From: Chloroflexota bacterium
GTDB taxonomy: Bacteria; Chloroflexota; Limnocylindria; Limnocylindrales; CSP1-4
Direction: 5' to 3'
Assembly (NCBI GenBank): GCA_021802585.1
Contig: JAJZRQ010000005.1
Location: forward strand, 761-64,760
DNA length: 64,000 nt
The notes under the pieces are model-generated. The model had not been told where the DNA came from. It did not search any database and saw nothing but the letters and a program-made list of their open reading frames with translations. Both the position numbers and the translations under genes were made by a program. Below, piece after piece: positions 35,767-54,333 of the stretch. The first letter of the stretch is position 1, and each line of letters begins with the position of its first letter.

Positions 35767-35846
35767 ACGCCAGCCAGCGCGGATGCCCGGAGCCGGTGGA
35801 CCCTCCCACCCGGTTCCGGGCTCCCGCAGAGAGGAGCCCGAACGCC

Positions 35847-36617: not shown

Positions 36618-36858
36618 CCACCTCATCCGGACGCCGGAGGTCCGCTCTCGGAATCTCAGCGCCTGGATGGCTCCCGCTCTCGGCGAACGAGCGACACCGC
36701 TGCCCGATCGATTCTTCGAGGAGGCCGCACTGACGGTGCTCGCCCACGTCTTCCGGGATGCGGGTCCCATCCGGGAGCAGCTCGTCTACGAGCGACGCCG
36801 CTTCGAGCGGTTGGTCCAACTCATCCACCGCCTGCCCGAACGGGCCGGAGGTGCGTGA
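36601..36858 (+). CDS. Small hypothetical protein of cassette 1
   Basis: ATG 36601 is 8 nt after GGAGGTG. It overlaps the previous gene by 17 nt and the next one by TGATG. No motif recognised. Confidence 0.4.
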   Translation: MPSLRDHLIRTPEVRSRNLSAWMAPALGERATPLPDRFFEEAALTVLAHVFRDAGPIREQLVYERRRFERLVQLIHRLPERAGGA

Positions 36859-37685
36859 TGTTTCCGATCCTCGAAGCCGGTCCATCGCTCGAGGGGGCGA
36901 CCCTGCCGGCCTTCGTCGTCGCTCGCGACGGGCTCTACCTGCGGAAGCGAAGCCTCCTCGGGCTGAGCCAGACGAAGGTCGGCCGGATCGCCCACCTGCC
37001 GGAGGGCAGGGAGTTCGTCGACTACGCGCTGCCCAAGGTCCCAGCCGACCTGATGGCGCGCGCGGTCGGCTTCTTCCGCGCCGTCTACCGGCTGCATAAG
37101 ACCGAGGCGGCCGTTCTCCTGGTCTGGCGTGACGCAGGCTTCGACCTCGTCGTGCCGGCCCAGAAGGTGTCCAGTGTCTCGGTCAAGTTCGACCTGGCGG
37201 ACGGCGACGTGCCGTCCGGCGGTCGACTCGTGGGGACGATCCACTCGCATGGGGGCTTCGGCGCCTATGCGAGCTCGATCGACGAGGACGACGAGGCGGA
37301 GCTCGATGGGCTCCACGTCGTCGTCGGCGACTTCGATCAACGACGGCTCGGCTACTCGGCCGCGATCGTCGTCGACGGCATCCGCTTCTCTCTGAAGACC
37401 GGTCAGCTCATCGAGCGGCCTCGGCGCCTCGCCGAGCCACCCGACGACTGGCTCCGGAAGGTGAAGCTGGCGCCGCCGCCCCGCCTCAAGGGCAAGCCGT
37501 CGATCAAGGAGTACCTCGCCCGGGGCTTCAAGCCCTCGGACGAGATCTCGAAGCCAAGTCGACGGGAGCTCGACGACGCGATCGAGAAGGCGAGCAAGCT
37601 CGCCACCGCCCTCGGCTACCGCCTCAGCTACTGGCTCGTGCCGGTCTCCGGCTCGAGCGAGAAGGGAGGCACGGCCGATGGCTGA
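36858..37685 (+). CDS. JAB/MPN (JAMM) metalloprotease, cassette 1
   Basis: Exact JAMM motif HSHGGFGAYASSID (H-x-H-x7-S-x2-D) with upstream Glu (HKTEAAVLL). About 110-aa C-terminal extension. Confidence 0.8.
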   Translation: MFPILEAGPSLEGATLPAFVVARDGLYLRKRSLLGLSQTKVGRIAHLPEGREFVDYALPKVPADLMARAVGFFRAVYRLHKTEAAVLLVWRDAGFDLVVPAQKVSSVSVKFDLADGDVPSGGRLVGTIHSHGGFGAYASSIDEDDEAELDGLHVVVGDFDQRRLGYSAAIVVDGIRFSLKTGQLIERPRRLAEPPDDWLRKVKLAPPPRLKGKPSIKEYLARGFKPSDEISKPSRRELDDAIEKASKLATALGYRLSYWLVPVSGSSEKGGTADG

Positions 37686-38376
37686 CCGGATCGTCCTCGT
37701 CGGCTGCGGCGGGATCGGGAGCCAGTTGCTCCCGCCGCTCGTCCGCTACCTCGCGAACCGGCCCGAACCGCGCTCGCTCCTGGTCCTCGTCGACGGCGAC
37801 GTCTTCGAGCCCGGGAACCGATCGCGACAGGCCTGCTCGACCAGCGATCTGGGCTCGAACAAGGCCGAGGCCCTGGCCCGGGTCGCACGAGACGATGGGC
37901 TCGCCGTCCAGGCCATCCCCGAGTTCCTCGACGAGACCAACGTCCGGTCGATCGTCCGCGAGGGAGACATCGTCCTCCTCGCGGTCGACAACCACCGGGC
38001 GCGGGCCCTCGTCGATCGACATCTCGGATCGCTCGACGACGCGACGCTCATCAGCGGCGGCAACGACGAGACGGACGGCAACGTCCAGCTCGTCCGCCGC
38101 CGTGACGGCTGGTCCGTGGACGGCCATCTGACCGAGATCCACCCGGAGATCGGCATGGCCACTGTAGAGGAACCGCGCGGCGACGGCTGCCAGGCAATGG
38201 CGGCCGAACATCCGCAGCTCCTCGTGACGAACCTGATGGTCGCCAGCGCGATGCTCAGCTGCCTCTGGCAGATCAGTGAGCGCGGCAGCGTCCCCTACAG
38301 CGAGGTCTACCTCGACGCCATCCAGAACGCGGCCCGCAGCCGCTCCTGGTTCCGCGTCCCGGCCGGCGCGCAGTAG
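37678..38376 (+). CDS. ThiF/MoeB-type E1-like adenylyltransferase, cassette 1
   Basis: VGCGGIGS nucleotide loop, DGDVFEPGNRSRQ, GSNKAEA and AVDNHRAR are the canonical E1 adenylation-site residues. Confidence 0.85.
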   Translation: MADRIVLVGCGGIGSQLLPPLVRYLANRPEPRSLLVLVDGDVFEPGNRSRQACSTSDLGSNKAEALARVARDDGLAVQAIPEFLDETNVRSIVREGDIVLLAVDNHRARALVDRHLGSLDDATLISGGNDETDGNVQLVRRRDGWSVDGHLTEIHPEIGMATVEEPRGDGCQAMAAEHPQLLVTNLMVASAMLSCLWQISERGSVPYSEVYLDAIQNAARSRSWFRVPAGAQ

Positions 38377-38454
38377 GGAGTGTGGACCCACAGGTGCACA
38401 ACCCGGCCGAGGCGGCGCCCACCGGCGTCCCTCGGCCGAACGATCTCAGGCGGC

Positions 38455-38486
38455 TTTGTTACAGGACTTGAAACAATTGTCACAAA
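38455..38486. promoter_or_regulatory. AT-rich inverted repeat ahead of the ATPase gene
   Basis: TTTGTTACA-14 nt-TGTCACAAA (8/9 complementary), in a locally AT-rich patch. Confidence 0.3.
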
Positions 38487-39619
38487 CGCGATCGACGAAC
38501 CCGTTCCGACCTGGTAGCGGGATCCTCCCGCCGCTCTTGGCTGGGCGCGAGCGCGAGACGGCTGCCTTCGAGGCGCGCGTTGCGCGGACCCGCGAGGGCC
38601 AGCCGCAGCACACGGCGCTGCTCGGCGAATGGGCGATCGGCAAGACGACGCTCCTGATGCACTGGCGACGCCTGCGACAGCAGGCTGGCGACGCCGTCGT
38701 CCTTTCGATGGCATACCCGCAGTCGGCGGACGAGTTCCTCGCCGGTCTCGTCACGGCGATCGATGCCGAACTTGGGACGGACTGGCCGCGGCGTCTCGAC
38801 GTGGAGCTGGGCGTCGATATCGGAATCGCCGACGCTCGGTTCCGCCGGACCGCCCCGAACTCCGAGAGGGAGTTGCGCGCGGCATTGCGACGACTCGTCG
38901 AGCACCGCGCGGACGAGGACCGGTCCGTGGTCGTCTTGCTCGATGACGTCGACCTGCTGCGTGAGACCGGGGACGTGCTCCTGCGCCTGCGCGCCTGTGC
39001 CCTCGAGCTCTACGCGGCCGACCTGCCGCTCGCATTCATCGTGGCGGCGTCCCCAGGCCTGTTCACGGAGGTGCGATCGGCTCACGAGCCGCTGGTCCGG
39101 TTCTTCGAGCCGCTGACTGTCGGTCCGCTCGATGACTCGGACGCCGCGCGAGCCCTGGCCGAACCGCTCGCGGAAACAACCGTTCGATTCGACCCCGACG
39201 TGGTCGCCGAGATCGTGGACCTCGCCGGCGGACGACCCTACTACCTTCAGAAGCTCGGCTACTACACGTTTGACGCCGCGGGCAACGGGCGGGTCACACA
39301 GGCCGAGTTCGCGGTCGCCTTCGAGCGAGCGTTTGCCTCCGTAAGCCAGGAGATCTTCGCCGCTCGCTGGGCCGGTATGTCCCCGATCGACCGCCAGGTT
39401 GTGGCCGTCGTCGCCCGCAGCACCGAGCCGCGCCCCTCGGGCGACATCGAAGCCGAGGCGGCGCGACGCGGAGTGAGGCCGGGAGCCGCCCGGCAATCGC
39501 TGCGCCGTCTTGCGTCGAAGGGCCAGATCGACCGGCTCGCCAACGGGCACCGCGGCCGTTACGAGGTTCGGGATCGGCTCTTCAAGCGGTACCTGGAACT
39601 GCAGACATGCGAGCCGTAG
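38468..39619 (+). CDS. AAA/ORC-like (archaeal-ATPase-type) ATP-binding protein with C-terminal wHTH
   Basis: NPFRPGSGILPPLLAGRERE, Walker A GEWAIGKTT, Walker B VVVLLDDVD, C-terminal LRRLASKGQIDRL. Start TTG 38468 or 38477 (uncertain). Confidence 0.75.
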   Translation: MKQLSQTRSTNPFRPGSGILPPLLAGRERETAAFEARVARTREGQPQHTALLGEWAIGKTTLLMHWRRLRQQAGDAVVLSMAYPQSADEFLAGLVTAIDAELGTDWPRRLDVELGVDIGIADARFRRTAPNSERELRAALRRLVEHRADEDRSVVVLLDDVDLLRETGDVLLRLRACALELYAADLPLAFIVAASPGLFTEVRSAHEPLVRFFEPLTVGPLDDSDAARALAEPLAETTVRFDPDVVAEIVDLAGGRPYYLQKLGYYTFDAAGNGRVTQAEFAVAFERAFASVSQEIFAARWAGMSPIDRQVVAVVARSTEPRPSGDIEAEAARRGVRPGAARQSLRRLASKGQIDRLANGHRGRYEVRDRLFKRYLELQTCEP

Positions 39620-40557
39620 CCGTCGCAAGCGCTGTTCCCAGACTCGACGAGTTCGCGCTTGCCGACGTCATCTCCGAGTACCTCTCCGCCTTGAAGGTCG
39701 CCGGCAGGAGCCCGAAGACGATCAGTTGGTATGCCGACATGCTCTGGGAGTTCGTCCGGTTCATCGAGCGTGAGGGGGTTCGGGCGACGGTCGCGGACGT
39801 CGCCCCCGTCGAGGTGCGGCGCTGGCTGCTGGCAATCCAATCACGACGAACGCGAAGCCTTGCCCCAAGCAGCATGGCCGCCCGCGTCCGGACCGTGAAG
39901 GCGTTTGGGACCTGGATCGCGAACGAGCTTGATCTGCCGGCGAACCCGGTTCGGGGTGTGCCGGTTCCTCGTGTCCCCGAACTTCTCGTTCCTAGCCTTC
40001 GGGAACCCGACATCCTTGCCCTTCTAAGAACCCTCGATGCAGGTTCTCAGCAGCCCGAGCGCGACCGGGCGATCGTCCTGCTGCTGCTCGATACGGGTCT
40101 GCGCCTGAGTGAGGCCGCCAACCTTCGAATTCGCGACGTCGACCTCATCGAGGGTCGGTGCCGCGTGATGGGAAAGGGCGGACGAGAGCGCGTAGTGCCA
40201 GTTGGCCGAAAGACCCGTCGCGCTCTCCGTCATTGTCTCGCGCGCCGGGGAAGGCTCCTGCCCGACGAGGCTCTGTTCATCGGCCGCGGTGGTCGGGCGC
40301 TCGCTCCCCGCGGCATTCAGCAGCTCGTCCGCCGACTGAGCCGCCGCACCACGCTCGCGTCGCGATGCTCACCTCACGTCCTTCGCCATACCTTTGCCCG
40401 ATCGTTTCTTGCGAACGGTGGCGACGTGTTCTCGCTTCAGCGAATCCTCGGCCACAGCCCATCGTCCCTTCAGGTCACTCGTCGGTACGTCGACCTGCTC
40501 GATGACGACCTCCGCGCGGTACACCGTGAGGCCTCACCGGTCGACCGTCTGGGCTAG
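39607..40557 (+). CDS. Tyrosine recombinase/integrase (XerC/D-like), Int-1
   Basis: LLLLDTGLRLSEA (Arg), HVLRHTFA (H-x-x-R), LGHS...TRRY (His, Tyr). The ATG overlaps the ATPase gene end by 13 nt. Confidence 0.9.
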   Translation: MRAVAVASAVPRLDEFALADVISEYLSALKVAGRSPKTISWYADMLWEFVRFIEREGVRATVADVAPVEVRRWLLAIQSRRTRSLAPSSMAARVRTVKAFGTWIANELDLPANPVRGVPVPRVPELLVPSLREPDILALLRTLDAGSQQPERDRAIVLLLLDTGLRLSEAANLRIRDVDLIEGRCRVMGKGGRERVVPVGRKTRRALRHCLARRGRLLPDEALFIGRGGRALAPRGIQQLVRRLSRRTTLASRCSPHVLRHTFARSFLANGGDVFSLQRILGHSPSSLQVTRRYVDLLDDDLRAVHREASPVDRLG

Positions 40558-40600: not shown

Positions 40601-41464
40601 TCAGCCGCTTGGGTCCCAGAACAAGATCAGAACCTGGTAGGTCGTATTCACCAGTTCATATTTCACAACGCGGCGCTTGCCCGCTAGATCGATACGAAGT
40701 TCCTCGCCACCGACGACCACTGCGGGTTTGGTCAGATCGGCGGCTGAACGAAGCCAGGTCTCGGGCGGGTCGGCAATCACCACAGGCACCTTCGGCGGCC
40801 CGAATCGCTCAATCCATGACGGCGACGCGGTGACCTCATTGCGGCGGTAACGAAGGGGTTCGCGACTCAGCGGCGATGGTTCCAGCGCGATCGCAAGCAC
40901 GGGGCGATGATGAGTCCGTGCAAATGCCCGCAATGTTGCACGGATTGACGCCCCAAAGAGACCCGCGATGGTCACGACCGAGGCCATCTCCAATCGGTGC
41001 TGCGCGGCGATGCGACGGATGAAGTCGTGTTGGAACAGCAGAAGCGAGGCGCCCTCATTGGCCTCCCGTTCAAACAAACGCCGGGTCGCCGGCGAGAGAT
41101 CGACGTCGTCGTCGACTACGACGAGATCCGTCTGCCATGGCGCGATGTGATGGACGACTTCATGAAGTCGATTGAAATTTCGTCGCCCGTGGATCGCGAT
41201 GGCGGGGTCGAGGTGAATCTCGCGTTCGCGGCGATCGAGCAACGCACGGATCTTGAAGCGAAAGGGAGCGATCGCCGCGCGAAGGTACTGCGGTGCGCGC
41301 GAGAGGACGGAATCGGAGAGGACTGACTCGCTGGCCTCCCGCAGGTTGCCGGCGGCCACGATGTCGTCGATAGGGGTCGGCAATCGTCCGAGCGCGCCAG
41401 CATCCAGGAGGAGCCGGTGGGTCAACCGGCTAATCTCGTCGGGATGCTCGGCATCGCCGGTCAT
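40601..41464 (-). CDS. ImmA/IrrE-family zinc metallopeptidase
   Basis: HEVVHH (HExxH) followed by FEREANEGASLLLF, as in ImmA/IrrE/CapP peptidases. Starts 2 nt after the stop of the XRE gene. Confidence 0.7.
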   Translation of the reverse strand: MTGDAEHPDEISRLTHRLLLDAGALGRLPTPIDDIVAAGNLREASESVLSDSVLSRAPQYLRAAIAPFRFKIRALLDRREREIHLDPAIAIHGRRNFNRLHEVVHHIAPWQTDLVVVDDDVDLSPATRRLFEREANEGASLLLFQHDFIRRIAAQHRLEMASVVTIAGLFGASIRATLRAFARTHHRPVLAIALEPSPLSREPLRYRRNEVTASPSWIERFGPPKVPVVIADPPETWLRSAADLTKPAVVVGGEELRIDLAGKRRVVKYELVNTTYQVLILFWDPSG

Positions 41465-41466
41465 CC

Positions 41467-41817
41467 TCAGCCCTCGCGGCTGCGCTCGTGCCGATACCAG
41501 GACAGGTATCGGGCCAGCTCTTCCACCTCTGCCGCCGAGAGATCCTCTGCATTCAGGGCATGAGCAAGGATATTCACGGAGGCGTCGCCTCGACCCGCTC
41601 GAGGGACGACATGGCCGGCAAGCTCCATTAGGTCTCGATACGGAATGGCCAGTGCTGCCGCCAGGCGATGTAGGACCGCCGGCGACGGTTGCTTGACCTC
41701 GCCTCGTTCGATCTTCTGAAGATATGGCGGACTGATGCCCGCCTTCGCAGCCGTGCCGCGGAGGGAAAACTCCTTCAGTTCACGGACTTCGCGCAGGCGT
41801 CGTCCGAGATCACCCAT
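41467..41817 (-). CDS. XRE-family HTH transcriptional regulator
   Basis: LRGTAAKAGISPPYLQKIERGEVKQPSPAVLHRLAAAL. ATG 41817 follows AAGGAGGA. Only the last 116 aa of ORF 41467..42198 are real. Confidence 0.85.
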   Translation of the reverse strand: MGDLGRRLREVRELKEFSLRGTAAKAGISPPYLQKIERGEVKQPSPAVLHRLAAALAIPYRDLMELAGHVVPRAGRGDASVNILAHALNAEDLSAAEVEELARYLSWYRHERSREG

Positions 41818-41862
41818 CGAATCCTCCTTCTCGTTCACCGACGGCGTGACTGTACACTCCAG

Positions 41863-41892
41863 TTGACATCTTCGCAACCTCTCAGCTAGCAT
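41863..41892 (+). promoter_or_regulatory. Sigma-70-like promoter of the Ubl-2 operon
   Basis: TTGACA (41863-41868), 18 nt, then TAGCAT (41887-41892), in the 108-bp divergent region between the XRE gene and Ubl-2. Confidence 0.4.
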
Positions 41893-41925
41893 GGGCCGCG
41901 TAACCCGTAGTGAACGGAGGATCCA

Positions 41926-42207
41926 GTGGTGAACGAACAGGACAAGGTCAGGGACAGCATCAAGGTAACGGTCACTTTCCCCCTCGGCGAGGGGCCCTAC
42001 CACGATGACGTGCCACCGGACACGACGGTCGGCGATGTCCGATCGGCAGCCATGCGCGGCTTCGGCGTGACTGAGGATCCGGCATTGCTCTTCTACCTCA
42101 TTCACGCCGGCGACAGGATCGACGACGGTCGGACGATCGGCGACGTGGCCGGCCACGCGGCAGCCGTCAAGTTCACCCTCGCCCGCGAGATCATTCAAGG
42201 GGCCTGA
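41926..42207 (+). CDS. Ubiquitin-like beta-grasp protein, Ubl-2
   Basis: 93 aa. IKVTVTFPLG...TTVGDVRSAAMRGFGV...YLIHAGDRIDDGRTIGDV...VKFTLAREIIQGA fits the alternating beta/alpha pattern of prokaryotic Ubl domains. GTG follows GGAGGA. Confidence 0.55.
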   Translation: MVNEQDKVRDSIKVTVTFPLGEGPYHDDVPPDTTVGDVRSAAMRGFGVTEDPALLFYLIHAGDRIDDGRTIGDVAGHAAAVKFTLAREIIQGA

Positions 42208-42644
42208 TGGATATCGAGAGCCAGCTGCGCCTCGACGAGGACGTTGAGGCGGTCGCCTTCTACCTTGACGAGAATGGCGGTCGCCTCGACGCCGATCCGG
42301 CTGGCGAGGCCGGCGTTTGGTGGGCCACGATGCGGCCCCGCACTATCCCCGAGGAGCAGTACTACGTTCGGATCGGCTGGCTCCGATACCCGGACGCGCC
42401 TCCCTCGGTCAAGTTCGGAACCGCCGTCGGCGGTTCACTTGGCATCACGGCCGCGTGGCCCGTCGTGCCGAGCTATCGGCCAGGCAATTTCGATATCTGC
42501 GCTCCGTTCACAAAAGAGGGGTTCGAATCGCATCCGGAGTGGGCCGCCCAGTTCCCGTGGCCCACGACCGGCAACCCTTTTCTGTGGATCGTGGACATCG
42601 TCCAGGGGCACCTTGACCGCTCGTACCAGGGGCGATCGGGATGA
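42207..42644 (+). CDS. UBC-like E2 (Ubl-conjugating enzyme)
   Basis: YPDAPPSVKF mirrors the E2 YPxxPPxVxF motif. A candidate catalytic Cys sits in NFDICAPF about 35 aa later. TGATG overlap with Ubl-2. Confidence 0.65.
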   Translation: MDIESQLRLDEDVEAVAFYLDENGGRLDADPAGEAGVWWATMRPRTIPEEQYYVRIGWLRYPDAPPSVKFGTAVGGSLGITAAWPVVPSYRPGNFDICAPFTKEGFESHPEWAAQFPWPTTGNPFLWIVDIVQGHLDRSYQGRSG

Positions 42645-43126
42645 CCGGTCTCGAACTACCGGCGGCTGCGCTGGCGCGCCTGCTCGCCGATGTCGTTCGG
42701 TTTGGTGACAACGGCCTCGAGACGGGTGCGGTGCTGCTCTCGTCCCGTCGTGACAGTCATGCCGATGTCCTAGCACTGTGCGGCGAGCACGGAATTGAGC
42801 GCCGTCCCGACCAGTTCGTAATAAGTGGCGCCGCCCTCGCCCAACTGTTCGACTGGGCAGACGAGGCAGGGGCCCGGGTTATCGCTCAGGTGCATTCGCA
42901 TGGCGGACTCGCGCGGATGTCCCCAACGGACCGACGGTTCGGGCTCACCGTCGAGGGCTTCACGAGCGCCATCGTCCCGCACTTCGGTCGACCGCCAAAT
43001 GATCCGGCGGCATGGGGATGGTGGCGGTTTCAGGACCAGGTCTGGGTGCCCTCCGACCCTGGATCAGCTGTAGCGGCCCCGAGCCGGACGGTCATCTTCG
43101 ACGAGGAGGGAGTTCGTGCCGGCTGA
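42641..43126 (+). CDS. JAB/MPN (JAMM) metalloprotease, cassette 2
   Basis: ETGAVLL Glu and HSHGGLARMSPTD (JAMM with one residue less in the spacer). ATGA overlap with E2. Confidence 0.75.
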   Translation: MTGLELPAAALARLLADVVRFGDNGLETGAVLLSSRRDSHADVLALCGEHGIERRPDQFVISGAALAQLFDWADEAGARVIAQVHSHGGLARMSPTDRRFGLTVEGFTSAIVPHFGRPPNDPAAWGWWRFQDQVWVPSDPGSAVAAPSRTVIFDEEGVRAG

Positions 43127-44630
43127 TCACTCCCGCGCGCTTCTCCTCGGGCAGAACGTGACCGACCAGCCGCAGAGCGAGCTCGCTCAGCGACTCGAGG
43201 GCGCGAGCGTTTCGATCGACATCGACCTCGGCATTCCCGGTGCTGTCTTGACCGCGTCGATCCTCGTTCGGACCCTCCGGCGCCTCCCTGGGCGCATTTC
43301 GATCGACCCCGATGAACTGCCCACCTCGCTGGTCGAGCGGCTCCGCGTCGAGGCCGAGGCCATCGATCCGGATCGACCCATCGCCGTTGGCCGGCCTCGG
43401 GCTGGTGACACGATCATCCGAATCGGCACCACGGGGCCGCCCGGGTCATTGCGCGTCATCCCAGATCTGCACGGCTTCCGCCTCTCGTGGGCGAGCAACT
43501 CCCTTCAACAGGGGAAACCTGCTTCCGCTCTGGGATCGGCCGCGGCTGCTGCTGCTGCCGCCGCCGAGACCTTCAAGGTGGCGGCCCGCGTAATCGGAGT
43601 TCGGGGCCGTCGCCATCGCCGTCTGGCATGGTGCCCGGTCACACTTTCCCATCGGCCCGCTCAAGGCCCGGATCTTCCGCGCGACTGGCAGTTGGACGGC
43701 CTCCTCCTCGGGCTGGGGGCGATCGGGTCGGCAACCGCGCTGATCCTCTCCGAGCTGCCGGTTGAGGGGTCGCTCGACCTCGTCGACCCGCAACGGTTCG
43801 CACCCGAGAACGTCGGGACGTATTCGCTCGGCGGTGCCAAGGAGGCTCTCGATCAGCCGTGGAAGACCTCCGTGGCCGCGAGCGCCCTGAGACGATTCGA
43901 GACGAGGAGCTGGAATGCGGTCGCGGCGTATCTGCCCGAACTCATCGACGCAGGCCGACTCCGGTGGCCCCCGATCGTCCTAACAGGACTCGACTCGCCT
44001 GACGCACGCCGCGACTCCCAACGTCTTTGGCCGGATCACCTAATCGATGGAGCCACAGGCGACACGATGGTCGGCCTTCATGCGATTACCGCTGTCGGCC
44101 GGCCTTGCCTCGCATGCTTCTTCCCGCCGACGGCGACGCCCACGGTCTCGCCCACGCGGGAGCTGGAGCGTGCGACGGGATTGCCGACGGAGTTACTTGT
44201 GCGAGGCGCGGAGATCCTGCTCGAGGCGCATCTCGAAGGTCTCTCGGTGGCGCACCAGGAGCGTCTGCGCCCCTTTGTCGGCAGGGAGATCTGCGGGCTT
44301 GCGAGTGCGCTTGGGCTGACGGAGCTGCCCGACGAGGGATACCGACCATCGGTCGCCTTTGTGTCGCTGACCGCCGCGACTCTCGTCGTCGGGCGGCTGG
44401 TCGCGATCGCTGCGGGCTGGCGGACTGCATCCAACTTCGTGCAGTACGACACGCTCGCCGGCCCGCGCCAGCCGACGCGCGAGTGGCGGACCGCGCGGCC
44501 CGCATGCGATTGCGTGCAGCGCGCAGGCGTCGTCGCGGAAGTGAGACGCCGCCGGGCTGCGTATCGGTTTGTCGACCGACCGCCGTCGATCGGCCATGAT
44601 CGGATGACGCCAGCGTCGAACGAGGCTTGA
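43116..44630 (+). CDS. E1-like Ubl-activating enzyme (long form with N-terminal extra domain)
   Basis: C-terminal half: GLGAIGS loop, PWKTSVAA Lys, GLDSPDARR Asp, Zn pairs CLAC and CDC. About 200-aa N-terminal domain without a nucleotide loop. Confidence 0.75.
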   Translation: MPADHSRALLLGQNVTDQPQSELAQRLEGASVSIDIDLGIPGAVLTASILVRTLRRLPGRISIDPDELPTSLVERLRVEAEAIDPDRPIAVGRPRAGDTIIRIGTTGPPGSLRVIPDLHGFRLSWASNSLQQGKPASALGSAAAAAAAAAETFKVAARVIGVRGRRHRRLAWCPVTLSHRPAQGPDLPRDWQLDGLLLGLGAIGSATALILSELPVEGSLDLVDPQRFAPENVGTYSLGGAKEALDQPWKTSVAASALRRFETRSWNAVAAYLPELIDAGRLRWPPIVLTGLDSPDARRDSQRLWPDHLIDGATGDTMVGLHAITAVGRPCLACFFPPTATPTVSPTRELERATGLPTELLVRGAEILLEAHLEGLSVAHQERLRPFVGREICGLASALGLTELPDEGYRPSVAFVSLTAATLVVGRLVAIAAGWRTASNFVQYDTLAGPRQPTREWRTARPACDCVQRAGVVAEVRRRRAAYRFVDRPPSIGHDRMTPASNEA

Positions 44631-44636
44631 TCGAGG

Positions 44637-45455
44637 ATGACACTCGCCACCGTCATCAAGGGACCTGAGGGGGTCGTGCTGGCCGCCGAGAGTCGGGTCA
44701 CGCTGCGCGTCGCGACTGGCGGTCGTGAGCGCGAGAGCACGTTCGATCATGCAACCAAAGTGCTGAGTTTCGGAGCGCCGAACACCGGCTTCGGCGCAGT
44801 CACGTACGGGGTGGGCGTTCTCGGTCGTGACCGCACCGCGGCGAGCTTCATTCCCGAGTTCGAGGCGACGCTGCCAGATGAAGCGATCCCTGTTGCGGAG
44901 TTCGCAAGCCGACTTGGCGACTTCTTCCGGGTCCAGTGGCAGGCCAACCCGCCGACAGCCAAGCCCGCGGACGCCATGTCATTCCTGGTCGCGGGATTCG
45001 ACGCCGACGATGCCTACGCCCGGGTGTTCCAGTTGGACGTCCCGATCACGGTCACGCCGATCGAGCATTTCCTGGCGCCCCATCAACCTCCATTCGGGGC
45101 GCGCTGGGGCGGTCAGAAGAAGATCGTTGAGCGATTGTTGGCCGGCTTCGATCCGCTCCTTCCCGAGATGGTCCGGCACCGCCTCGGTCTCGATCCGAAA
45201 CAAATGGACGAAATGCGTGAGGCGGTATCAGCGCTCGAGCTCTCGGTGCCGTGGGAGGCTATGGCTCTGCAGGACTGCATCGACCTTGCGATCTTTGGAA
45301 TCCGCTCGACCATCAGCGCTCAGGCCCTGTCCCTGGAAGTCCGTGGCTGCGGTGGGGCGATCGACGTGGCTGTAATAACGCGGCGCGAGGGGTTGCGATT
45401 CGTACAACGCAAAGCGCTCGTCGGCGACCATCCGAGCGGTCGGACGGAGACCTGA
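44637..45455 (+). CDS. Proteasome beta-subunit/HslV-like Ntn threonine protease
   Basis: MTLATVIKGPEGVVLAAESRVT (Thr right after Met, Glu17, Arg19), TKVLSF (Lys33 equivalent). C-terminal GGAIDVAVITRREG closely matches archaeal beta subunits. Confidence 0.8.
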   Translation: MTLATVIKGPEGVVLAAESRVTLRVATGGRERESTFDHATKVLSFGAPNTGFGAVTYGVGVLGRDRTAASFIPEFEATLPDEAIPVAEFASRLGDFFRVQWQANPPTAKPADAMSFLVAGFDADDAYARVFQLDVPITVTPIEHFLAPHQPPFGARWGGQKKIVERLLAGFDPLLPEMVRHRLGLDPKQMDEMREAVSALELSVPWEAMALQDCIDLAIFGIRSTISAQALSLEVRGCGGAIDVAVITRREGLRFVQRKALVGDHPSGRTET

Positions 45456-45485
45456 GGCTCCGGACACGATCCCTCGGACGACTGC

Positions 45486-46439
45486 CTACCGCCCCTTGTT
45501 GCCCATGAGCCGATCGGCCGGCGACGCCCCGCGGTGGCGCTCGACGAGGTCGACGTCGGCGAGGGCGACATATCGCTTGACCATGTCGAGCGTCGTGTGG
45601 CCGAGGATCCGCTGGAGGCTGAACACGTCGCCGCCGTTGACGAGATAGCTCCGAGCGAACGTGTGGCGGAGCGAGTGCGGACTGAGCCGGCCCGTCACCC
45701 CGATCCTCGTCTTCAGCCGACGGATCGCCTGCTGGATGCCGCGGCCGTCGATCGGCCCGCGCCGGCCGAGGAAGAGGGGATCGTCGGCTGCCCCGGGGCC
45801 GCGCTGACCGAGGTAGCGGACGATCGCCTGCCGGGCGGTCCCACCGACCGGCACGATCCGCTCCTTCGATCCCTTGCCGCGGACCTTGAGCGTCCCGTCG
45901 ACCCGCAGGTCGCCGAGGCGCAGCCCACCCGCCTCGGACACCCGCAGGCCGGTGTCGAGCAGTAGGAGGAGGATCGCCCGGTCGCGCAGACCGGCGACCG
46001 CGAGCAGCCTCCGCATCGCGTCGTCCCCGACCGGCTCGATGAGCCTCTCGGGGACGCGCGGCTTGCGCAGTGCCCGCAGCGCCGTGGCCCGTGCGAGCTC
46101 CTCGGCCGCCAGCCAGTTGCCGAGGACCTTGAGGGTCCGGACGTAGCCGGCGACACTGATCGGCGAGAGCGTCGAGCGGAGCTCGAGCAGCCAGGCCCGC
46201 AGGTCGGCCCCGTCAAGGCTGTCGACCGGCCGGCCGTCGCCGAGCGAGGTCACCGCTCGGCGCAAGATCATTCGATACCAGGTGAGGGTCTTCGCGGCGG
46301 CGCCCTCGGCGGCCTTCGCCGCGAGGAACAACTCGACCGCCCGGCCGAGCGTCAGGTGCCCGTCAGAATCAGGTGCCCATAGATTCTGAGTGCCCGAATC
46401 AGGTGCCCAAAGATCAGGGGAGTCAGGTGCCCAAACCAT
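45486..46439 (-). CDS. Tyrosine recombinase/integrase, Int-2 (homolog of Int-1)
   Basis: LLLLDTGLRVSEA, HSLRHTFA, LGHT...VKRY. Start uncertain (ATG 46439 or GTG 46484). The N-terminal WAPDS repeats may be non-coding DNA repeats. Confidence 0.9.
   Translation of the reverse strand: MVWAPDSPDLWAPDSGTQNLWAPDSDGHLTLGRAVELFLAAKAAEGAAAKTLTWYRMILRRAVTSLGDGRPVDSLDGADLRAWLLELRSTLSPISVAGYVRTLKVLGNWLAAEELARATALRALRKPRVPERLIEPVGDDAMRRLLAVAGLRDRAILLLLLDTGLRVSEAGGLRLGDLRVDGTLKVRGKGSKERIVPVGGTARQAIVRYLGQRGPGAADDPLFLGRRGPIDGRGIQQAIRRLKTRIGVTGRLSPHSLRHTFARSYLVNGGDVFSLQRILGHTTLDMVKRYVALADVDLVERHRGASPADRLMGNKGR
46352..46432. repeat. Array of five TCAGGTGCCC decamers
   Basis: Copies at 46352, 46369, 46399 and 46423, plus a degenerate copy (TGAGTGCCC) at 46387. 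The same 9-mer TCAGGTGCC occurs inside both tRNA-Gln genes (46586, 48513). Confidence 0.6.
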
Positions 46440-46510
46440 GTCCGTCGCCTCCTGCGACGGACCACCGTTCGGGGCTCCGACCACGACATCTGGTGCTCCG
46501 GGTCCTCATT

Positions 46511-46540: not shown

Positions 46541-46615
46541 TTGGCTGGCGAGGAAGGATTCGAACCTTCAATCCCCTGATCCAGAGTCAGGTGCCTTACC
46601 GTTAGGCCACTCGCC
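46541..46615 (-). tRNA. tRNA-Gln (anticodon CTG), copy 1, CCA encoded
   Basis: Manual fold of the minus strand: acceptor TGGCGAG/CTCGCCA, D arm GCCT..AGGC, anticodon arm CCTGA-CTCTGGA-TCAGG, T arm GAAGG-TTCGAAT-CCTTC, discriminator G, CCA. Confidence 0.9.
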
Positions 46616-46687
46616 AGCGATGCCGCAGCGGCGCCCAGAGTCTACCGCGTCGGCTGCGGCCGCCTCAACCGCGGGTCGCCGGTCGCC

Positions 46688-48467: not shown

Positions 48468-48542
48468 TGGCTGGCGAGCAAGGATTCGAACCTTGAATCC
48501 CCTGATCCAGAGTCAGGTGCCTTACCGTTTGGCCACTCGCCA
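48468..48542 (-). tRNA. tRNA-Gln (anticodon CTG), copy 2, CCA encoded
   Basis: Same fold as copy 1. Differs at 3 positions: one in the D loop and a compensated pair in the T stem (CAAGG/CCTTG versus GAAGG/CCTTC). Confidence 0.9.
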
Positions 48543-50770: not shown

Positions 50771-53700
50771 TCAGCCCCCCGTCGGACCCGGCGCGGGCGT
50801 CGTCGGGGCCGGCGTCGTCGTGCCGGGCCCGGGCGTCGCCTCCGGTGCACCGCCCCCGCCGGGCGTCCCGGAGGCGCGGGCCGCCGCGGCCGACATCCGC
50901 TCGAGCTGCGCGGCGAGCGCGAGGAGCGAGCCGCGGATCGCCGACCCGGTCCGGCTCAGCTTCGCCGTCGCCATGACGAGCATCTGGATCGCCGCGAAGT
51001 TCACCTGCTGGCCGCCCATCGCGGCCTGGCGGTTGAGGGTCATGAGGACCCTCTGGGATTCCGCGCGGAACTGGCCGAGGGCCGACGAGACGTCCCGCTC
51101 GACCTCGCCGGCCTCCGTCTGGAGTCGCGAGAGGAGCGTGACGTCGGCCTCGCCCTTCGCCTCGTGGAGGAGCTTCTGGAGCCGCGCGGCGAGGTCGTCC
51201 CAGGCGCTCTCGTCGGGGACGACGACCCCCAGGTCGCGCATGAGCTCCCGGAACCGGTTGCCGTACTTGGCGACCCCCTTGATCGCCCCGACCGCGTCCT
51301 CGGTCGCCACGAAGCCGGTCCGCAGGAGCGACGTGGCCTCGGCGTTCAGCTTCGGGAGCTGGTCGAGGAGCGCCGTGTACACGTGCTCGGGGAGCGCCGT
51401 CGTCTGGCCCGCGAGGAGGCCCTCCGCGAGCGACACGATCTGGCGCGTCGCCCCGCCGGAGAAGTAGCCGCCGCCCTCCGTCGCGTTGATGAGGCCCTGG
51501 CTGTCGCCGATCTGCTGGACGAGCGACTTCTGGGCCGCCTTGTCGCCGCCCTGGATCGCCTGCTCCAGCTGGGTGTGGAGGTCGTCGATCTTCGTGTAGA
51601 GGGCGGCCCGGTCGCCCTCGCTCAGCGGCCGGAACGTCGCCTTCGGGACCCCCAGCTGCTCCATCTGCTGCTCGATCGCCCGGACGAGCTGGTCGTTGCC
51701 CGCCTGCTGCGCGTCGTGGAGGGTCTTGTTGAGGATCGTCGCCTCGGCGACCTTCTCGGCCCGGGCGCTCACCTCGGCGCGGAGGGCCGGGTCCAGCTGG
51801 TCGTAGAGGTGGAGCCGTCGCGGGTCGGTGAAGAAGTCGGCGAGGAGGAGCTCGCCGAGGCGGTCCGGCGTCGTCCCGGCGCGCCCGGCCATGAACGAGC
51901 GCACCGCGGACCGGTTCTTCGACGCGTGCGGCCCGAGGAGGCTGACGTCGAAGTCGTTCGTGAACGCGCCCTGGCTGCCCGTCCGCTTCACCGCGACCTG
52001 GCCGGTCTCCCGGTCGATCCCGCCGGGCAGCTCCCGGACGAAAGCCTCGATGTCCCCGATCATCCCGTCGCGCCACCGCATGATCGCCTTGCCGGCCGCG
52101 GACTCGTTGCCGAGCGTCATCGAGAGGGTCCGCCAGCCGCCGTTCATGTCGAGGACGCGCTTCGGCCCGAATCGCTCGACGGCGAGGGCCGCCACCTGCT
52201 CGGCGACGGCGGGGTCGGCCGCCTTCTCCGCGGCGAGGTTCCCGGCGCGCCGGGCGAACTCCGCGGGGCTCAGCTTCAGGAGGTCCTGCGACGCGCCGGC
52301 GAGGGCCCTGAGGCGGGCCGCGATCGGCGATTCCTCGCCGACGATCTCGAGGAGCTGGGCGGCGTTCCGCCCGGTCCGGGCCGCGACCGTCTCCGCGCCG
52401 AGCTCGGAGACGGCCCGCTCGACGAGTGCCCTGTCCGGCGCCCGGCCGGCGAGCTCGGCGAGCTCCTCGAGGATCCGGCCGCCGGCCTTCGAGCCCGCCG
52501 CGAGGGCCGCGCGGTCCACCGCCCCGCTGAGGGCGCGGCCGAGCGGCTTCGCCGCCGAGAGGGCGTCGACGGCGACCATCGCCGTGGCGAGCGCGGCCTC
52601 GAAGACCGCCATCTCGGCCTGGCCGGAGGCGAGGAGCTCGGTCCCGCCCCCGGTGGTCGCCCGGGCGGCCTGGGTCATCTCCATCGCCTTGTCCCAGGCG
52701 ACGGCCGCCTGGCCGGCCCCGATCCCGACGCCGAAGCCGACGAGGGCCGCCGTCGCCATCCCCGCGGTCGCGAACTCGGCGAGGATGAACGCCGCCGCGG
52801 CGAGGGTCGAGAGGCCCATCGTCTTCCAGAACTCGGCCGTCGACTCGAGGTCGAGGACCTCCTTGGCGAGGGCCTGGGCGGCGGCGTCCTTCCAGTCCAC
52901 GCCGGTCGTCCCGCGGGCCCCGCCGAAGAGCTGGTTGTGGATCGGTGTGAGCTCGTAGGCGAGCGATCCGGCGAGCTTCGGCCGGGTCGAGCGGATCGAA
53001 TCGCGGGTCGAGGTCAGCATCCCGAGGATCGCAGCCCGGGCGGCGCGCGGGTCCTCCGTCGCGCTGGCCGCCTCCATCGGGCGGTCGCCGCCCATCATCC
53101 CGATCCCGACGACGGGATAGGCGATCGAGAGGCCCTGCATGATCGCCTCGAGGACGTCCCACTGGGCCTTCACGTCGCGGTACGGCACGGGAGCGAGCGT
53201 CTCCGGCGACGCGCCGGCGGCCCGCGCCTTCTCGATGCGGTCGGCCGGCGGGTTCGCGTCCGTGGGGTCCGGCGGACGGGCGGGGTCGAACGTGACCGGG
53301 AAGTAGACCGTCCGGTCGGTGAGCATGTAGTACGCGCGCCGGATCCCGACGACGATCGACCTGAGCGACAGCTGGGTCTTCTTGGCGTCCTTCGTGAGCC
53401 GCATCGCGACCGAGAGCTCCGTGAGGCGCTGGGCCTGCTCCTCGGCCGACGGCGCCGCCCCGGGCGCCGCGCCGGGGGCGCCGCCCCCGCCCTCGCCGCC
53501 ACCCTCCTCCGGCACCCCGAGCCGCTTCAGCTCCTCGCCGATGTACTTCTCGTTCGCGTCGAGGTAGCCGCCGGCGATCGAGCGGACGTCGACGAGGAAC
53601 TTGTCGGCCTGGGCCCTGACGATCGGCAGCGTGTAGAGCTCGGCACCGCCCTCGAGGGAGAGCCGCCACAGCTCGGAGTTCGCCCGCGCCTGGTCGAGGA

Positions 53701-54181: not shown

Positions 54182-54333
54182 GCGAACTCCTCGTGGGCCG
54201 CGGGGGCCGCGGCGGGGCCCGGGACGACGCCCTGATCGTGGCGCGGCCCGTCGCGACGGGGGAGCCCGGACCGGGCGGACGATCGGGCGGGATCGGCTGC
54301 CCGATCGGGCAGGGGCCCAGGTGCCGGGCGGGG

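What the first reader, a model, noticed from the sequence alone, without database searches (positions are those of the whole stretch)
44637..45455. Orphan 20S-beta/HslV-like Ntn hydrolase with Thr directly after Met, and no alpha subunit or Pup machinery nearby
Seen: the N-terminus MTLATVIKGPEGVVLAAESRVT places Thr at position 2, Glu at mature position 17 and Arg at 19. TKVLSF gives a Lys33 equivalent after a roughly 7-residue insertion. C-terminal GGAIDVAVITRREGLRFV is, from memory, almost the same as the Thermoplasma beta segment GGMIDVAVITRKDGYVQL. There is an insertion of about 60 aa between the two halves. Known: proteasome-family proteases need a free Thr1. HslV, Anbu and BPH expose it by Met removal without a propeptide, whereas actinobacterial PrcB has a propeptide and sits with prcA, pup, pafA and mpa. 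None of those genes is present in this window. Inference: this is a self-compartmentalising or ring-forming Thr protease recruited as an accessory of the Ubl system, not the housekeeping proteasome.
Basis: partly seen in the sequence, partly recalled or inferred. Interest (0 to 1): 0.8.

Follow-up and report, generated by a model that had tools for sequence, protein, structure and literature searches.

The report
Proteasome-like peptidase appended to Bil operon
A real, intact proteasome-fold peptidase gene sits as the fifth gene of a bacterial ubiquitin-like (Bil-type) anti-phage operon; this pairing recurs in a few distant relatives and is not in the literature I could search, but what the peptidase cuts is unknown.

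Summary
The ORF at 44637-45455 (+) is real. It has 741 homologues, and dN/dS against a 96%-identical copy is 0.18. Its AlphaFold model (pLDDT 84) matches only 20S proteasome subunits. Thr2, Glu18, Arg20, Lys41 and Gly58 align with proteasome Thr1, Glu17, Arg19, Lys33 and Gly47. A stop codon two codons upstream rules out a propeptide.

It is not PrcB, HslV, Anbu or BPH. It belongs to a large uncharacterised family (about 3,400 50%-identity clusters, bacteria and methanogens). That family nearly always starts Met-Ser and has a helical insertion between H3 and H4, as in the "PMI" proteasome homologues of Fuchs et al. 2021.

It lies 6 bp after the E1 of a CapH/CapP-regulated BilA-B-C-D-like operon, on an integrase-flanked stretch beside tRNA-Gln in a Chloroflexota genome. 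The same E1-to-peptidase junction recurs in two diverged contigs (56-58% identity). These peptidases form an exclusive clade (100/100 bootstrap).

Elsewhere the family precedes a small variable ORF and often a Doc, MazF or ParE toxin.

Best reading: a dedicated peptidase recruited as an optional Bil accessory. Substrate and ring formation are untested.

The parts
44637..45455 (+). Proteasome-fold N-terminal-nucleophile peptidase gene (272 aa), fifth cistron of the operon
   Evidence: ORF and translation. 741 homologues. AF2 model pLDDT 84. Foldseek against PDB: the 50 listed hits are all 20S proteasome subunits. dN/dS 0.18.
44640..44642 (+). Thr2 codon, the predicted nucleophile once Met1 is removed (Ser in at least 90% of the family)
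   Evidence: Alignment A1. N-termini of 88 loci. In-frame stop two codons upstream of the ATG.
44688..44696 (+). Glu18-Ser19-Arg20, equivalent to proteasome Glu/Asp17 and Arg19
   Evidence: E18 nearly invariant (E or D); S19 and R20 invariant. The profile aligns 'aesrvt' to 'TERRVT' of T. acidophilum beta.
44757..44759 (+). Lys41, equivalent to proteasome Lys33
   Evidence: Invariant in A1. The equivalence is my manual alignment of 'K-V-L-S-F' with 'K33-L-F-Q-I' of T. acidophilum beta, a sequence I recalled from memory.
44808..44810 (+). Gly58, probable Gly47 (oxyanion hole) equivalent
   Evidence: Invariant in A1. Assigned by comparing motifs by eye ('VTYG' against 'TIAG'); not checked on coordinates.
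45117..45266 (+). Helical insertion (residues 161-210) before the helix I assign as H4
   Evidence: AF2 secondary structure: helices 161-169, 175-183 and 187-200, then 211-230. Fuchs et al. describe insertions at this site in PMI-2 to PMI-6.
43116..44630 (+). E1 (BilD-like), 504 aa; its stop codon lies 6 bp before the peptidase ATG
   Evidence: PADLOC BilD 1.7e-14 and Pfam ThiF. A profile of 25 homologues hits PDB 8tyz_A 'E1(BilD)' at 2.7e-19.
42641..43126 (+). JAB/JAMM deubiquitinase (BilC-like), 161 aa
   Evidence: PADLOC BilC 1.6e-12; Pfam Prok-JAB 5e-5, 23.6 bits against a cut-off of 25. An HSHG...S..D motif is visible in the translation.
42207..42644 (+). Probable E2 (BilB-like), 145 aa
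   Evidence: Only a weak PADLOC BilB hit, E=0.021. Conserved position in the operon; a 62-bit-per-100 homologue sits at the same place in L089. No PDB or Pfam hit.
41926..42207 (+). Ubiquitin-like protein (BilA-like), 93 aa, ending ...QGA
   Evidence: PADLOC BilA 1.7e-8. Plain phmmer finds mono-ubiquitin 4hk2_A at E=1.3e-3.
41863..41892 (+). The only sigma-70-like promoter match in 41300-45700, 34 nt upstream of bilA
   Evidence: 10 of 12 hexamer matches; shuffles give a mean of 0.3. A consensus match only.
41467..41838 (-). CapH-like XRE HTH regulator, transcribed divergently from the operon
   Evidence: Pfam HTH_31 and HTH_3. The 123-aa gene call on L003 fixes the probable start.
40601..41464 (-). 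CapP-like M78/IrrE metallopeptidase
   Evidence: PADLOC capP 8.5e-12; Pfam Peptidase_M78 1e-3.
45486..46484 (-). Tyrosine recombinase, converging on the peptidase gene with a 30-bp gap
   Evidence: ORF. I call it a recombinase from its resemblance, by eye, to the Pfam-scanned integrase at 39607-40557 (e.g. the shared LSPHxLRHTFARS and GGDVFSLQRILGH motifs); this ORF itself was not run against Pfam.
46542..46616 (-). tRNA-Gln(CUG) next to the recombinase; a possible integration site
   Evidence: ARAGORN. GC falls to 0.62-0.66 across about 39.5-45.5 kb, against about 0.70 or more on either side. No att repeat was found.

Best explanation
The gene encodes an active, propeptide-less peptidase of the proteasome fold whose nucleophile is Thr1. 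It belongs to a large uncharacterised family of proteasome homologues with a helical insertion between H3 and H4, probably one of the 'PMI' groups of Fuchs et al. 2021.

In one small clade this peptidase has been captured as the last cistron of a Bil-type ubiquitin-like conjugation operon: CapP/CapH regulators, then Ubl, E2, JAB and E1.

Shown:
- the fold and the conserved catalytic core;
- tight operon linkage that survives to 56-58% identity;
- an exclusive clade of Bil-linked members;
- purifying selection.

Inferred mechanism:
1. Methionine aminopeptidase removes Met1 and exposes Thr1.
2. The enzyme serves as the operon's dedicated protease.
3. It cuts a specific protein supplied or marked by the operon, most likely a Ubl-conjugated target or the Ubl itself.
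4. It does not act as a bulk housekeeping degradation machine.

The inference rests on analogy. Elsewhere in the family the peptidase gene is followed directly by a small partner ORF with a conserved N-terminal domain and variable tails, and then often by a Doc, MazF or ParE toxin. That suggests the family's general job is partner-specific proteolysis within conflict systems.
For: Fold and active site:
- AF2 pLDDT 84. The 50 Foldseek hits listed are all 20S subunits.
- T/S2, E/D18, R20, K41 and G58 are conserved across 38 sequences from many phyla.
- The forced start codon excludes a propeptide.

Operon linkage:
- 6-bp gap after the E1 gene here; 1-bp gaps in L089 and L094, whose peptidases are 58% and 56% identical.
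- The gene downstream in L089 is unrelated to the one in the window.
- The only promoter-like site lies upstream of bilA.
- The Bil-linked peptidases form an exclusive NJ clade, 100/100 bootstrap.
- dN/dS is 0.18, against 0.17-0.27 for the Ubl, E2 and JAB genes.

The operon is Bil-type:
- PADLOC BilA, BilC, BilD and capP hits.
- The E1 profile hits PDB 8tyz 'E1(BilD)' at 2.7e-19.
- Gene order, divergent CapH/CapP and a Ubl with Gly next to its C-terminus match Chambers et al..

Family habit:
- 116 of 132 non-redundant loci have a small same-strand ORF starting within 60 bp of the peptidase stop; a random-position control gives 28%.
- 49 of 118 have a third gene matching a toxin-type query: Doc/Fic, PemK/MazF, ParE/RelE (40 loci together) or a small hydrophobic ORF with no family hit (9 loci).
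Against: - No biochemical or genetic data exist for any member of the family.
- Only three independent Bil-linked lineages were found, two of them on contigs of 1.5-4 kb.
- All five close E1 relatives whose neighbourhoods I checked lack the peptidase. It is therefore dispensable for Bil function.
- The E1s of peptidase-bearing operons are not each other's closest relatives: 46% identity to each other, against 58% to a peptidase-less operon.
- The usual small downstream partner is absent here. HHalign finds no similarity between that partner and the Ubl, so 'the Ubl replaces the adaptor' is conjecture.
- Ser129, Asp166 and Ser169 of canonical beta subunits appear to be replaced (WGGQ; R-G-C-G-G) in my by-eye alignment.
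- The oligomeric state is unknown.
Confidence: 0.45

Rival explanations
1. First reader's version, a mini ubiquitin-proteasome. The protein assembles into a self-compartmentalising ring or double ring and degrades proteins tagged by the operon's Ubl.
For: Proteasome fold and catalytic core. Conserved co-transcription with a Ubl, E1, E2 and DUB set. The Ubl is close enough to ubiquitin to be found by plain phmmer.
Against: - No unfoldase or AAA+ partner lies in the operon.
- The roughly 50-aa insertion sits between H3 and H4. Fuchs et al. say insertions there could prevent double-ring assembly.
- Relatives sit in toxin-antitoxin-like modules, where limited cleavage of a partner is more plausible than bulk degradation.
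- Ring formation was not modelled.
Confidence: 0.2
2. Independent neighbour. The gene is a stand-alone or degenerate conflict module, a toxin-antitoxin-associated peptidase that lost its partner genes. It merely landed next to Bil on a mobile island and has no functional coupling to it.
For: - The family is normally unrelated to Bil.
- The region is bounded by two recombinase genes next to tRNA-Gln and has lower GC.
- Most Bil operons lack the gene.
- Different accessory genes occupy the 3' end of related Bil operons.
Against: - The 1-6 bp junction with the E1 gene is kept across three lineages at 56-58% identity, while the downstream flank differs.
- The Bil-linked members form an exclusive clade, 100/100.
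- There is no separate promoter-like site.
- Purifying selection equals that of the Bil genes.
- The catalytic residues are intact.
Confidence: 0.2
3. Transpeptidase, ligase or non-degradative factor. Like connectase, it would use its N-terminal nucleophile to form an acyl-enzyme intermediate and process or ligate a specific protein. Examples would be trimming the Ubl C-terminus (...QGA) or acting as the E3-like specificity factor that Bil operons lack.
For: - Connectase shows that proteasome homologues can be monomeric, sequence-specific ligases.
- Bil operons encode no E3.
- The Ubl here ends Gly-Ala, whereas the Ubls of five peptidase-less relatives end in Gly.
Against: - The H3/H4 insertion is at a different site from connectase's S3/S4 insertion.
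- The E. aridi Ubl also ends Gly-Ala, and no fifth gene is described for that operon.
- The Gly-Ala observation rests on a single lineage.
Confidence: 0.1
4. Ordinary member of a known clade: PrcB or 20S beta, HslV, Anbu or BPH, with its usual partners elsewhere in the genome.
For: General proteasome-fold similarity. Two JGI homologues are auto-annotated '20S proteasome alpha/beta subunit'.
Against: - The Pfam Proteasome score is below threshold.
- No NCBIfam family matches at E<=0.1.
- Profile against PDB sequences reaches only E of about 0.01-0.04 to proteasome subunits, and HslV, Anbu and BPH do not appear among the hits at E<=1.
- No propeptide; about 68 residues longer than the 203-aa T. 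acidophilum beta chain.
- No alpha subunit, HslU or Pup machinery among the ORFs scanned.
- The host is Chloroflexota.
Confidence: 0.03

Closest known systems
PMI-type proteasome homologues ('Proteasome homolog with Multiple Insertions', probably PMI-2 or PMI-4) of Fuchs, Alva and Lupas 2021 (PMC8665760)
   Same: - Proteasome fold with a Ser/Thr1, Asp/Glu17, Lys33 core and no propeptide.
- An insertion between helices H3 and H4.
- Patchy distribution across many bacterial phyla, Euryarchaeota and phages.
- No known function.
   Different: [quoted passage not shown] Here two contexts appear: Bil operons (rare) and small-ORF plus toxin modules (common).
BilABCD (bacterial ISG15-like) ubiquitination operons, Types I and II (Millman 2022; Hör 2024; Chambers 2023/2024, PMC10557695)
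   Same: - Gene order Ubl, E2, JAB, E1.
- E1 homologous to the crystallised BilD.
- Divergent CapH/CapP regulators.
- A single beta-grasp Ubl with Gly next to its C-terminus.
   Different: The described operons have four genes and no protease other than the JAB DUB. This one carries a fifth, proteasome-fold peptidase gene. The E1 and E2 are very diverged: there is no single-sequence PDB hit, and I could not assign Type I or Type II.
20S proteasome beta subunit, archaeal PsmB and actinobacterial PrcB
   Same: - The fold.
- The N-terminal nucleophile, Glu17, Arg19, Lys33 and Gly47 equivalents.
- The C-terminal GGxIDVAVITR motif shared with Thermoplasma beta.
   Different: - No propeptide and no alpha subunit.
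- No Pup, Mpa or PafA genes found nearby.
- About 68 extra residues.
- Ser129, Asp166 and Ser169 appear not to be conserved.
- Below the Pfam threshold.
- The family nucleophile is Ser.
HslV, Anbu and BPH (bacterial proteasome homologues)
   Same: Single-gene bacterial proteasome-fold peptidases. Fuchs et al. report no propeptide for Anbu or BPH.
   Different: - No HslU next to it.
- None of the transglutaminase, ATP-grasp or alpha-E genes that accompany Anbu (from my knowledge of the Anbu literature) appeared among the ORFs scanned.
- No NCBIfam match.
- It has the H3/H4 insertion, whereas Fuchs et al. describe HslV and BPH as compact and without insertions.
Tripartite toxin-antitoxin systems with a third regulatory component, e.g. 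toxin-antitoxin-chaperone (TAC) systems
   Same: In most family members, a conserved first gene precedes a small protein with a conserved domain plus variable tail, and then one of several interchangeable toxin superfamilies. This mirrors the modular logic of TAC.
   Different: The third component is a proteasome-fold peptidase, not a SecB-like chaperone. The window's own copy has neither the small ORF nor a toxin.

Membership tests
Proteasome-fold Ntn hydrolases (superfamily) | Alpha-beta-beta-alpha proteasome fold | tested here: met
   AF2 pLDDT 84.2 and pTM 0.83. Foldseek against PDB gives 415 hits at E<=1e-3; the 50 listed are all 20S subunits. The best viral hit is a 'proteasome beta type-2 subunit' at 5e-11.
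Proteasome-fold Ntn hydrolases (superfamily) | Nucleophile (Thr or Ser) at the mature N-terminus | tested here: met
   Thr2 follows Met1 directly. An in-frame stop lies two codons upstream. The family begins M-S/T in all loci with a recognisable start. Met removal itself is inferred from MetAP specificity and was not tested.
Proteasome-fold Ntn hydrolases (superfamily) | Asp/Glu17, Lys33 and Gly47 equivalents | tested here: met
   E/D18 nearly invariant; K41 and G58 invariant. The E17 and R19 register is confirmed by the HMM alignment to T. acidophilum beta. The K33 and G47 equivalences come from my motif comparison, not from coordinates.
Proteasome-fold Ntn hydrolases (superfamily) | Ser129, Asp166 and Ser169 network of canonical beta subunits | tested here: inconclusive
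   Sequence register suggests WGGQ and V/R-G-C-G-G at these positions, i.e. not conserved. No residue-level structural superposition was available.
20S beta / PrcB | Passes the curated family models | tested here: not met
   Pfam PF00227 scores 13.8 bits against a cut-off of 22.4. No NCBIfam family matches at E<=0.1.
20S beta / PrcB | Propeptide, adjacent alpha subunit, Pup/PafA/Mpa genes | tested here: not met
   No propeptide is possible. No such Pfam hits in about 45 ORFs scanned across the 64-kb window. The rest of the genome cannot be tested.
HslV | Compact subunit without insertions, adjacent hslU, curated HslV model | tested here: not met
   272 aa with an H3/H4 insertion. Neighbours are the E1 and a recombinase. 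No NCBIfam hit.
Anbu | Operon with transglutaminase-like, ATP-grasp and alpha-E genes; long C-terminal helix H5 | tested here: not met
   No such genes among the ORFs scanned. The model ends in a disordered tail after strand 252-257. No NCBIfam hit.
BPH | Clusters with the BPH sequences of Fuchs et al.; compact subunit without insertions | not tested
   No BPH reference sequence was compared directly. Indirectly unlikely: the H3/H4 insertion is present and no BPH chain appears among the profile-versus-PDB hits.
PMI proteasome homologues (Fuchs et al. 2021) | Insertion between H3 and H4, no propeptide, bacteria plus Euryarchaeota (plus phages for PMI-4) | tested here: met
   Helices at 161-200 inserted before residues 211-230. 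Homologues in Methanobacterium, Methanothermobacter and many bacterial phyla. 25%-identical homologues in Pseudomonas phages.
PMI proteasome homologues (Fuchs et al. 2021) | Direct sequence clustering with the published representatives (WP_137109689.1, HDY66466.1 and others) | not testable with these tools
   The reference sequences and the Mendeley dataset could not be retrieved. Accessions of ten family members did not coincide with them.
Bil-type (BilABCD) operon, for the neighbourhood | Gene order Ubl, E2, JAB DUB, E1, with the E1 homologous to BilD | tested here: met
   PADLOC BilA 1.7e-8, BilC 1.6e-12, BilD 1.7e-14. The E1 profile hits 8tyz_A 'E1(BilD)' at 2.7e-19. The order matches Chambers et al..
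Bil-type (BilABCD) operon, for the neighbourhood | E2 (BilB/CEHH) with a catalytic Cys | tested here: inconclusive
   PADLOC BilB reaches only E=0.021. No Pfam or PDB hit. A Cys-x5-Glu...His pattern is visible by eye, but the CEHH spacing is not identical.
Bil-type (BilABCD) operon, for the neighbourhood | Anti-phage activity and Ubl-to-target conjugation | not testable with these tools
   Requires experiments.

The most novel reading that the evidence does not exclude
The operon is a minimal bacterial ubiquitin-plus-proteasome-like pathway. The E1 and E2 attach the Ubl to phage or host proteins, and the operon-encoded proteasome-fold peptidase recognises and cleaves those conjugates. The Ubl would play, post-translationally, the delivery role that a genetically fused adaptor domain plays for antitoxins in the related peptidase-adaptor-toxin modules. 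This would be the first direct genetic coupling of ubiquitin-type tagging to a proteasome homologue in bacteria. It would also give a function to a large orphan family of proteasome homologues.
Probability: 0.2. Interest if true: 0.9.

Novelty: new variant of a known kind. Interest (0 to 1): 0.6.

Why it matters
Bil operons are the closest bacterial relatives of eukaryotic ubiquitination. As described so far they tag proteins but have no degradative arm. The proteasome homologues catalogued in 2021 have folds but no functions or contexts.

A conserved, selected fusion of the two in one transcription unit gives each a testable hypothesis:
- Is Ubl tagging in bacteria ever coupled to proteasome-type proteolysis?
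- Are these orphan proteasome homologues dedicated proteases of conflict systems?

The family-wide link to Doc, MazF and ParE toxin modules, if confirmed, would add a new kind of three-part toxin-antitoxin system and would provide many tractable experimental models.

The caveat is rarity. Only three lineages of the Bil-linked form were found, and there are no functional data.

Tried and rejected
- Single-sequence searches of the peptidase against PDB, Pfam, NCBIfam and PADLOC gave nothing significant. The fold assignment needed the family alignment and AF2.
- I looked for Bil genes next to 80 genome and 80 metagenome homologues and found none beyond L003, L089 and L094. 'The family is generally Ubl-linked' is rejected.
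- I tested whether a 270-aa upstream neighbour in L005 is an alpha-like paralogue. It is not (hhalign probability 0.2%).
- I tested whether the small downstream partner proteins are Ubl-like. HHalign found no similarity to BilA.
- I searched for att repeats of the tRNA-Gln end to delimit the island. Only the second tRNA-Gln gene matched.
- The peptidase has no hit in plasmids.
- I tried to assign a PMI subgroup through accession numbers, without success.
- Single-sequence PDB searches with the E1 and E2 found nothing. Only the E1 profile found BilD, so Type I versus Type II was left open.
- Literature searches for Bil or Ubl combined with proteasome homologue or Ntn, and for toxin-antitoxin combined with proteasome-like, returned nothing relevant. 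The library is incomplete, so absence there is not proof of novelty.
Full report
**1. Observation**

Its start is unambiguous. The upstream E1 gene ends with TGA at 44628-44630 in the same reading frame, and the ATG follows two codons later, with GAGG motifs just upstream. Thr is therefore residue 2 and there can be no propeptide.

The gene is not a chance ORF in GC-rich DNA:
- It has 741 homologues at E<=1e-3 in the 90%-clustered protein collection.
- A family profile finds 3,461 50%-identity clusters at E<=1e-3 and 1,426 at E<=1e-10.
- Against the copy on metagenome contig L003 (96% amino-acid identity), dN/dS is 0.18. The neighbouring Ubl, E2 and JAB genes give 0.17-0.27.

**2. What the protein is**

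Sequence alone barely sees the proteasome:
- Pfam PF00227 scores E=0.047, 13.8 bits, against a cut-off of 22.4.
- NCBIfam and PADLOC give nothing.
- A single-sequence PDB search gives nothing significant.

A 38-sequence alignment (A1) gave an AlphaFold2 model with pLDDT 84.2 and pTM 0.83. Foldseek against the PDB returned 415 hits at E<=1e-3. All 50 listed are 20S proteasome subunits. The best viral hit is a phage 'proteasome beta type-2 subunit'.

The family profile aligns 'aesrvt' to 'TERRVT' and 'GCGGaIDVAVITRReG' to 'SGGMIDVAVITRKDG' of Thermoplasma beta.

In the alignment, Arg20, Lys41 and Gly58 are invariant and Glu18 is Glu or Asp throughout. Position 2 is Ser in nearly every member. 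Thr occurs only in the window and its near-twin. Even the other Bil-linked members start Met/Val-Ser.

Compared with a canonical beta subunit there are three differences:
- about 7 extra residues in the hairpin before the Lys;
- three extra helices (161-200) before the helix I assign as H4;
- apparent replacement of Ser129, Asp166 and Ser169. This last point rests on my by-eye register, not on a superposition.

**3. Which family**

Fuchs, Alva and Lupas (2021, PMC8665760) described 22 new proteasome-homologue families. Those with an H3/H4 insertion are PMI-2 to PMI-6. They lack propeptides. PMI-2 and PMI-4 occur in many bacterial phyla and in Euryarchaeota, and PMI-4 also in phages.

The present family fits that description:
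- relatives were confirmed on 268 stretches of the species-representative genome collection, spanning Chloroflexota, Acidobacteriota, Armatimonadota, Bacteroidota, Methanobacterium and others;
- 25%-identical homologues occur in Pseudomonas aeruginosa temperate phages.

I could not retrieve the reference sequences, so the subgroup is unassigned. The authors state that they found no informative genomic context.

It is not PrcB, HslV, Anbu or BPH on every feature I could test; see the membership table. The host is Chloroflexota: its GlnRS is 87-88% identical to those of Chloroflexi and Ca. Limnocylindrales MAGs. No proteasome alpha, Pup, PafA or Mpa hit was found among the ORFs scanned in the window.

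**4. Surroundings**

The gene is the last of five co-oriented, overlapping or nearly abutting genes:
- Ubl, 41926-42207, ending QGA;
- probable E2, 42207-42644;
- JAB, 42641-43126;
- E1, 43116-44630;
- the peptidase, 44637-45455.

Divergently upstream lie an XRE HTH gene and an M78 peptidase gene.

PADLOC calls these BilA (1.7e-8), BilB (0.021, weak), BilC (1.6e-12), BilD (1.7e-14) and capP (8.5e-12). A profile of E1 homologues hits the crystallised E1(BilD), 8tyz, at 2.7e-19.

Gene order, divergent CapH/CapP and a Ubl with Gly next to its C-terminus all match the description of Bil operons by Chambers et al. They report four genes and no fifth.

The only sigma-70-like site in the region lies 34 nt before bilA.

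The block is bounded by two tyrosine-recombinase genes (39607-40557 and 45486-46484) and lies next to tRNA-Gln at 46542-46616. GC drops to 0.62-0.66 across it. It looks like an integrated element.

**5. Is the linkage meaningful?**

Among about 170 loci carrying family members, E1 genes lie upstream only in three cases:
- L003, the 96% twin, with the whole operon;
- L089, peptidase 58% identical, arranged E2-JAB-E1-peptidase with a 1-bp gap;
- L094, peptidase 56% identical, with an E1 C-terminus followed by the peptidase after a 1-bp gap.

The gene downstream of the peptidase in L089 is unrelated to the window's recombinase. What is conserved is therefore the junction with the E1, not the flank.

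In a neighbour-joining tree of 149 distinct sequences these four form an exclusive clade. It is recovered in 100 of 100 bootstraps on a 59-taxon subset.

Conversely, the E1s do not mirror this. The window E1 is 58% identical to P0271 but only 46% to the L089 E1. All five related operons I inspected lack the peptidase:
- P0271, P0274 and P0277 carry other 3' genes;
- P0290 and P0308 are plain CapP/CapH plus BilABCD.

The peptidase is thus an optional accessory that has been lost repeatedly or moved between Bil operons. Three lineages is a small sample.

**6. What the rest of the family does**

In 116 of 132 non-redundant loci with enough sequence, a small same-strand ORF (45-135 aa) starts within 60 bp of the peptidase stop. 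A random-position control gives 28%.

The largest cluster of these ORFs has a conserved N-terminal domain of about 70 aa and variable tails. Some tails end in a 'DW..PEEDEAW..L'-type motif that I recall, from memory only, as typical of MazE-like antitoxin tails.

In 49 of 118 loci the next gene matches one of my toxin-type queries:
- Doc/Fic, 13 loci;
- PemK/MazF, 15 loci;
- ParE/RelE, 12 loci;
- a small hydrophobic ORF with no family hit, 9 loci.

This modular pattern is a constant peptidase, an adaptor-like small protein and interchangeable toxins. It suggests that the family acts on a specific operon-encoded partner. I found no report of this.

The window's copy has neither a small ORF nor a toxin. 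Only 30 bp separate it from the recombinase gene.

**7. Mechanism**

Shown:
- the fold and catalytic core;
- no propeptide;
- operon linkage conserved at 56-58% identity;
- purifying selection.

Inferred:
- Met removal exposes Thr1.
- The enzyme is the operon's dedicated protease.
- Its substrate is a protein marked or supplied by the operon.

Whether it degrades Ubl conjugates, trims a Bil component or acts like connectase cannot be decided from sequence. HHalign gives no support for the idea that the Ubl is homologous to the adaptor domain. Ring formation is untested, and the position of the insertion makes it doubtful.

**8. Verdict**

I rate it a new variant of a known kind: a Bil-type operon with a proteasome-homologue fifth gene, drawn from a family already catalogued but functionless. 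Interest is moderate to high because both parent topics lack exactly this link. It is tempered by rarity and by the absence of any functional evidence.

Noticed in passing
L001:8001-9474, L036:2479-~3990, L073:6207-~7600 and about 110 other loci (L009-L171): Across the family the peptidase gene is followed directly by a small variable ORF (116 of 132 loci; random control 28%). Often a third gene follows: Doc/Fic, PemK/MazF or ParE/RelE toxin (40 of 118 loci) or a small hydrophobic ORF with no family hit (9 of 118). This looks like an undescribed peptidase-adaptor/antitoxin-toxin module.
   Followed up: partly
window 35343-39619 (+): A second, different ubiquitin-like operon lies just upstream. 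It comprises a Prok-E2_D protein (424 aa, Pfam E=1.7e-4, just below cut-off), an 88-aa ORF (a possible Ubl; no family hit), a JAB protein (276 aa, just below cut-off), a small ThiF E1 (232 aa) and an AAA_16/STAND ATPase (447 aa). The recombinase gene at 39607-40557 follows. Two Ubl-type systems therefore sit in tandem.
   Followed up: partly
P0002 (341 aa, 1.4-kb Logan contig): This gene product joins the N-terminal roughly 125 residues of the BilC-like JAB protein directly to the peptidase from residue 67 onward. It lacks the E1 and the peptidase N-terminus. It is either a deletion derivative of the same operon or an assembly chimera.
   Followed up: no
L172 (Pseudomonas phage vB_Pae_LESphi2, OQ594955.1: 40815-41837) and 15 related P. 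aeruginosa phages: Distant homologues (25% identity, E=2e-5) are encoded by temperate Pseudomonas phages. One is annotated 'proteasome subunit beta'. In LESphi2 the gene lies at the genome end beyond the tail-fibre genes, a position where, from general knowledge, accessory 'moron' genes often sit.
   Followed up: partly
L173:6520-9262, L174:6507-10483, L175:4749-8808: The closest peptidase-less relatives of this Bil operon carry a different 3' appendage. It consists of a 103-161-aa ORF, a fused HTH_3-Peptidase_M78 protein of about 386 aa, and one or more further ORFs of 280-434 aa with no Pfam hit. The 3' end of these operons seems to be a variable accessory slot.
   Followed up: no
window 41926-42207: Plain phmmer with the 93-aa BilA-like Ubl finds eukaryotic ubiquitin itself (mono-ubiquitin 4hk2_A, E=1.3e-3; polyubiquitins much lower). 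That is unusually direct sequence similarity for a bacterial Ubl. It ends ...QGA, whereas the Ubls of five peptidase-less relatives end in Gly.
   Followed up: partly
L001:3478-8855 (Zixiibacteriota MAG JBAVQU010000015.1): In this genome the family member lies directly after genes whose products carry UVR (McsA-like), ATP-gua_Ptrans with McsB_C (McsB-like) and ClpC-type AAA domains. It is itself followed by a small ORF and a PemK toxin. The adjacency to a protein-quality-control locus may be coincidental.
   Followed up: no
window 46542-46616 and 48468-48542 (-): Two nearly identical tRNA-Gln(CUG) genes flank the glutaminyl-tRNA synthetase gene (46688-about 48400). The first abuts the recombinase gene at the edge of the Bil-bearing block. 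No att-like direct repeat was found elsewhere in the window.
   Followed up: partly
window 50771-55003 (-): A 1,410-aa ORF with a coding-like GC3 pattern has no Pfam match at E<=1e-3.
   Followed up: no
window 54-34426: The left half of the window is rich in metal-homeostasis and resistance genes: Nramp, P-type ATPase, cation-efflux (CDF) protein, CopC, Caa3_CtaG, MerB, MerR, ArsR-type and DtxR-type regulators, FTR1 iron permease and ferritin.
   Followed up: no
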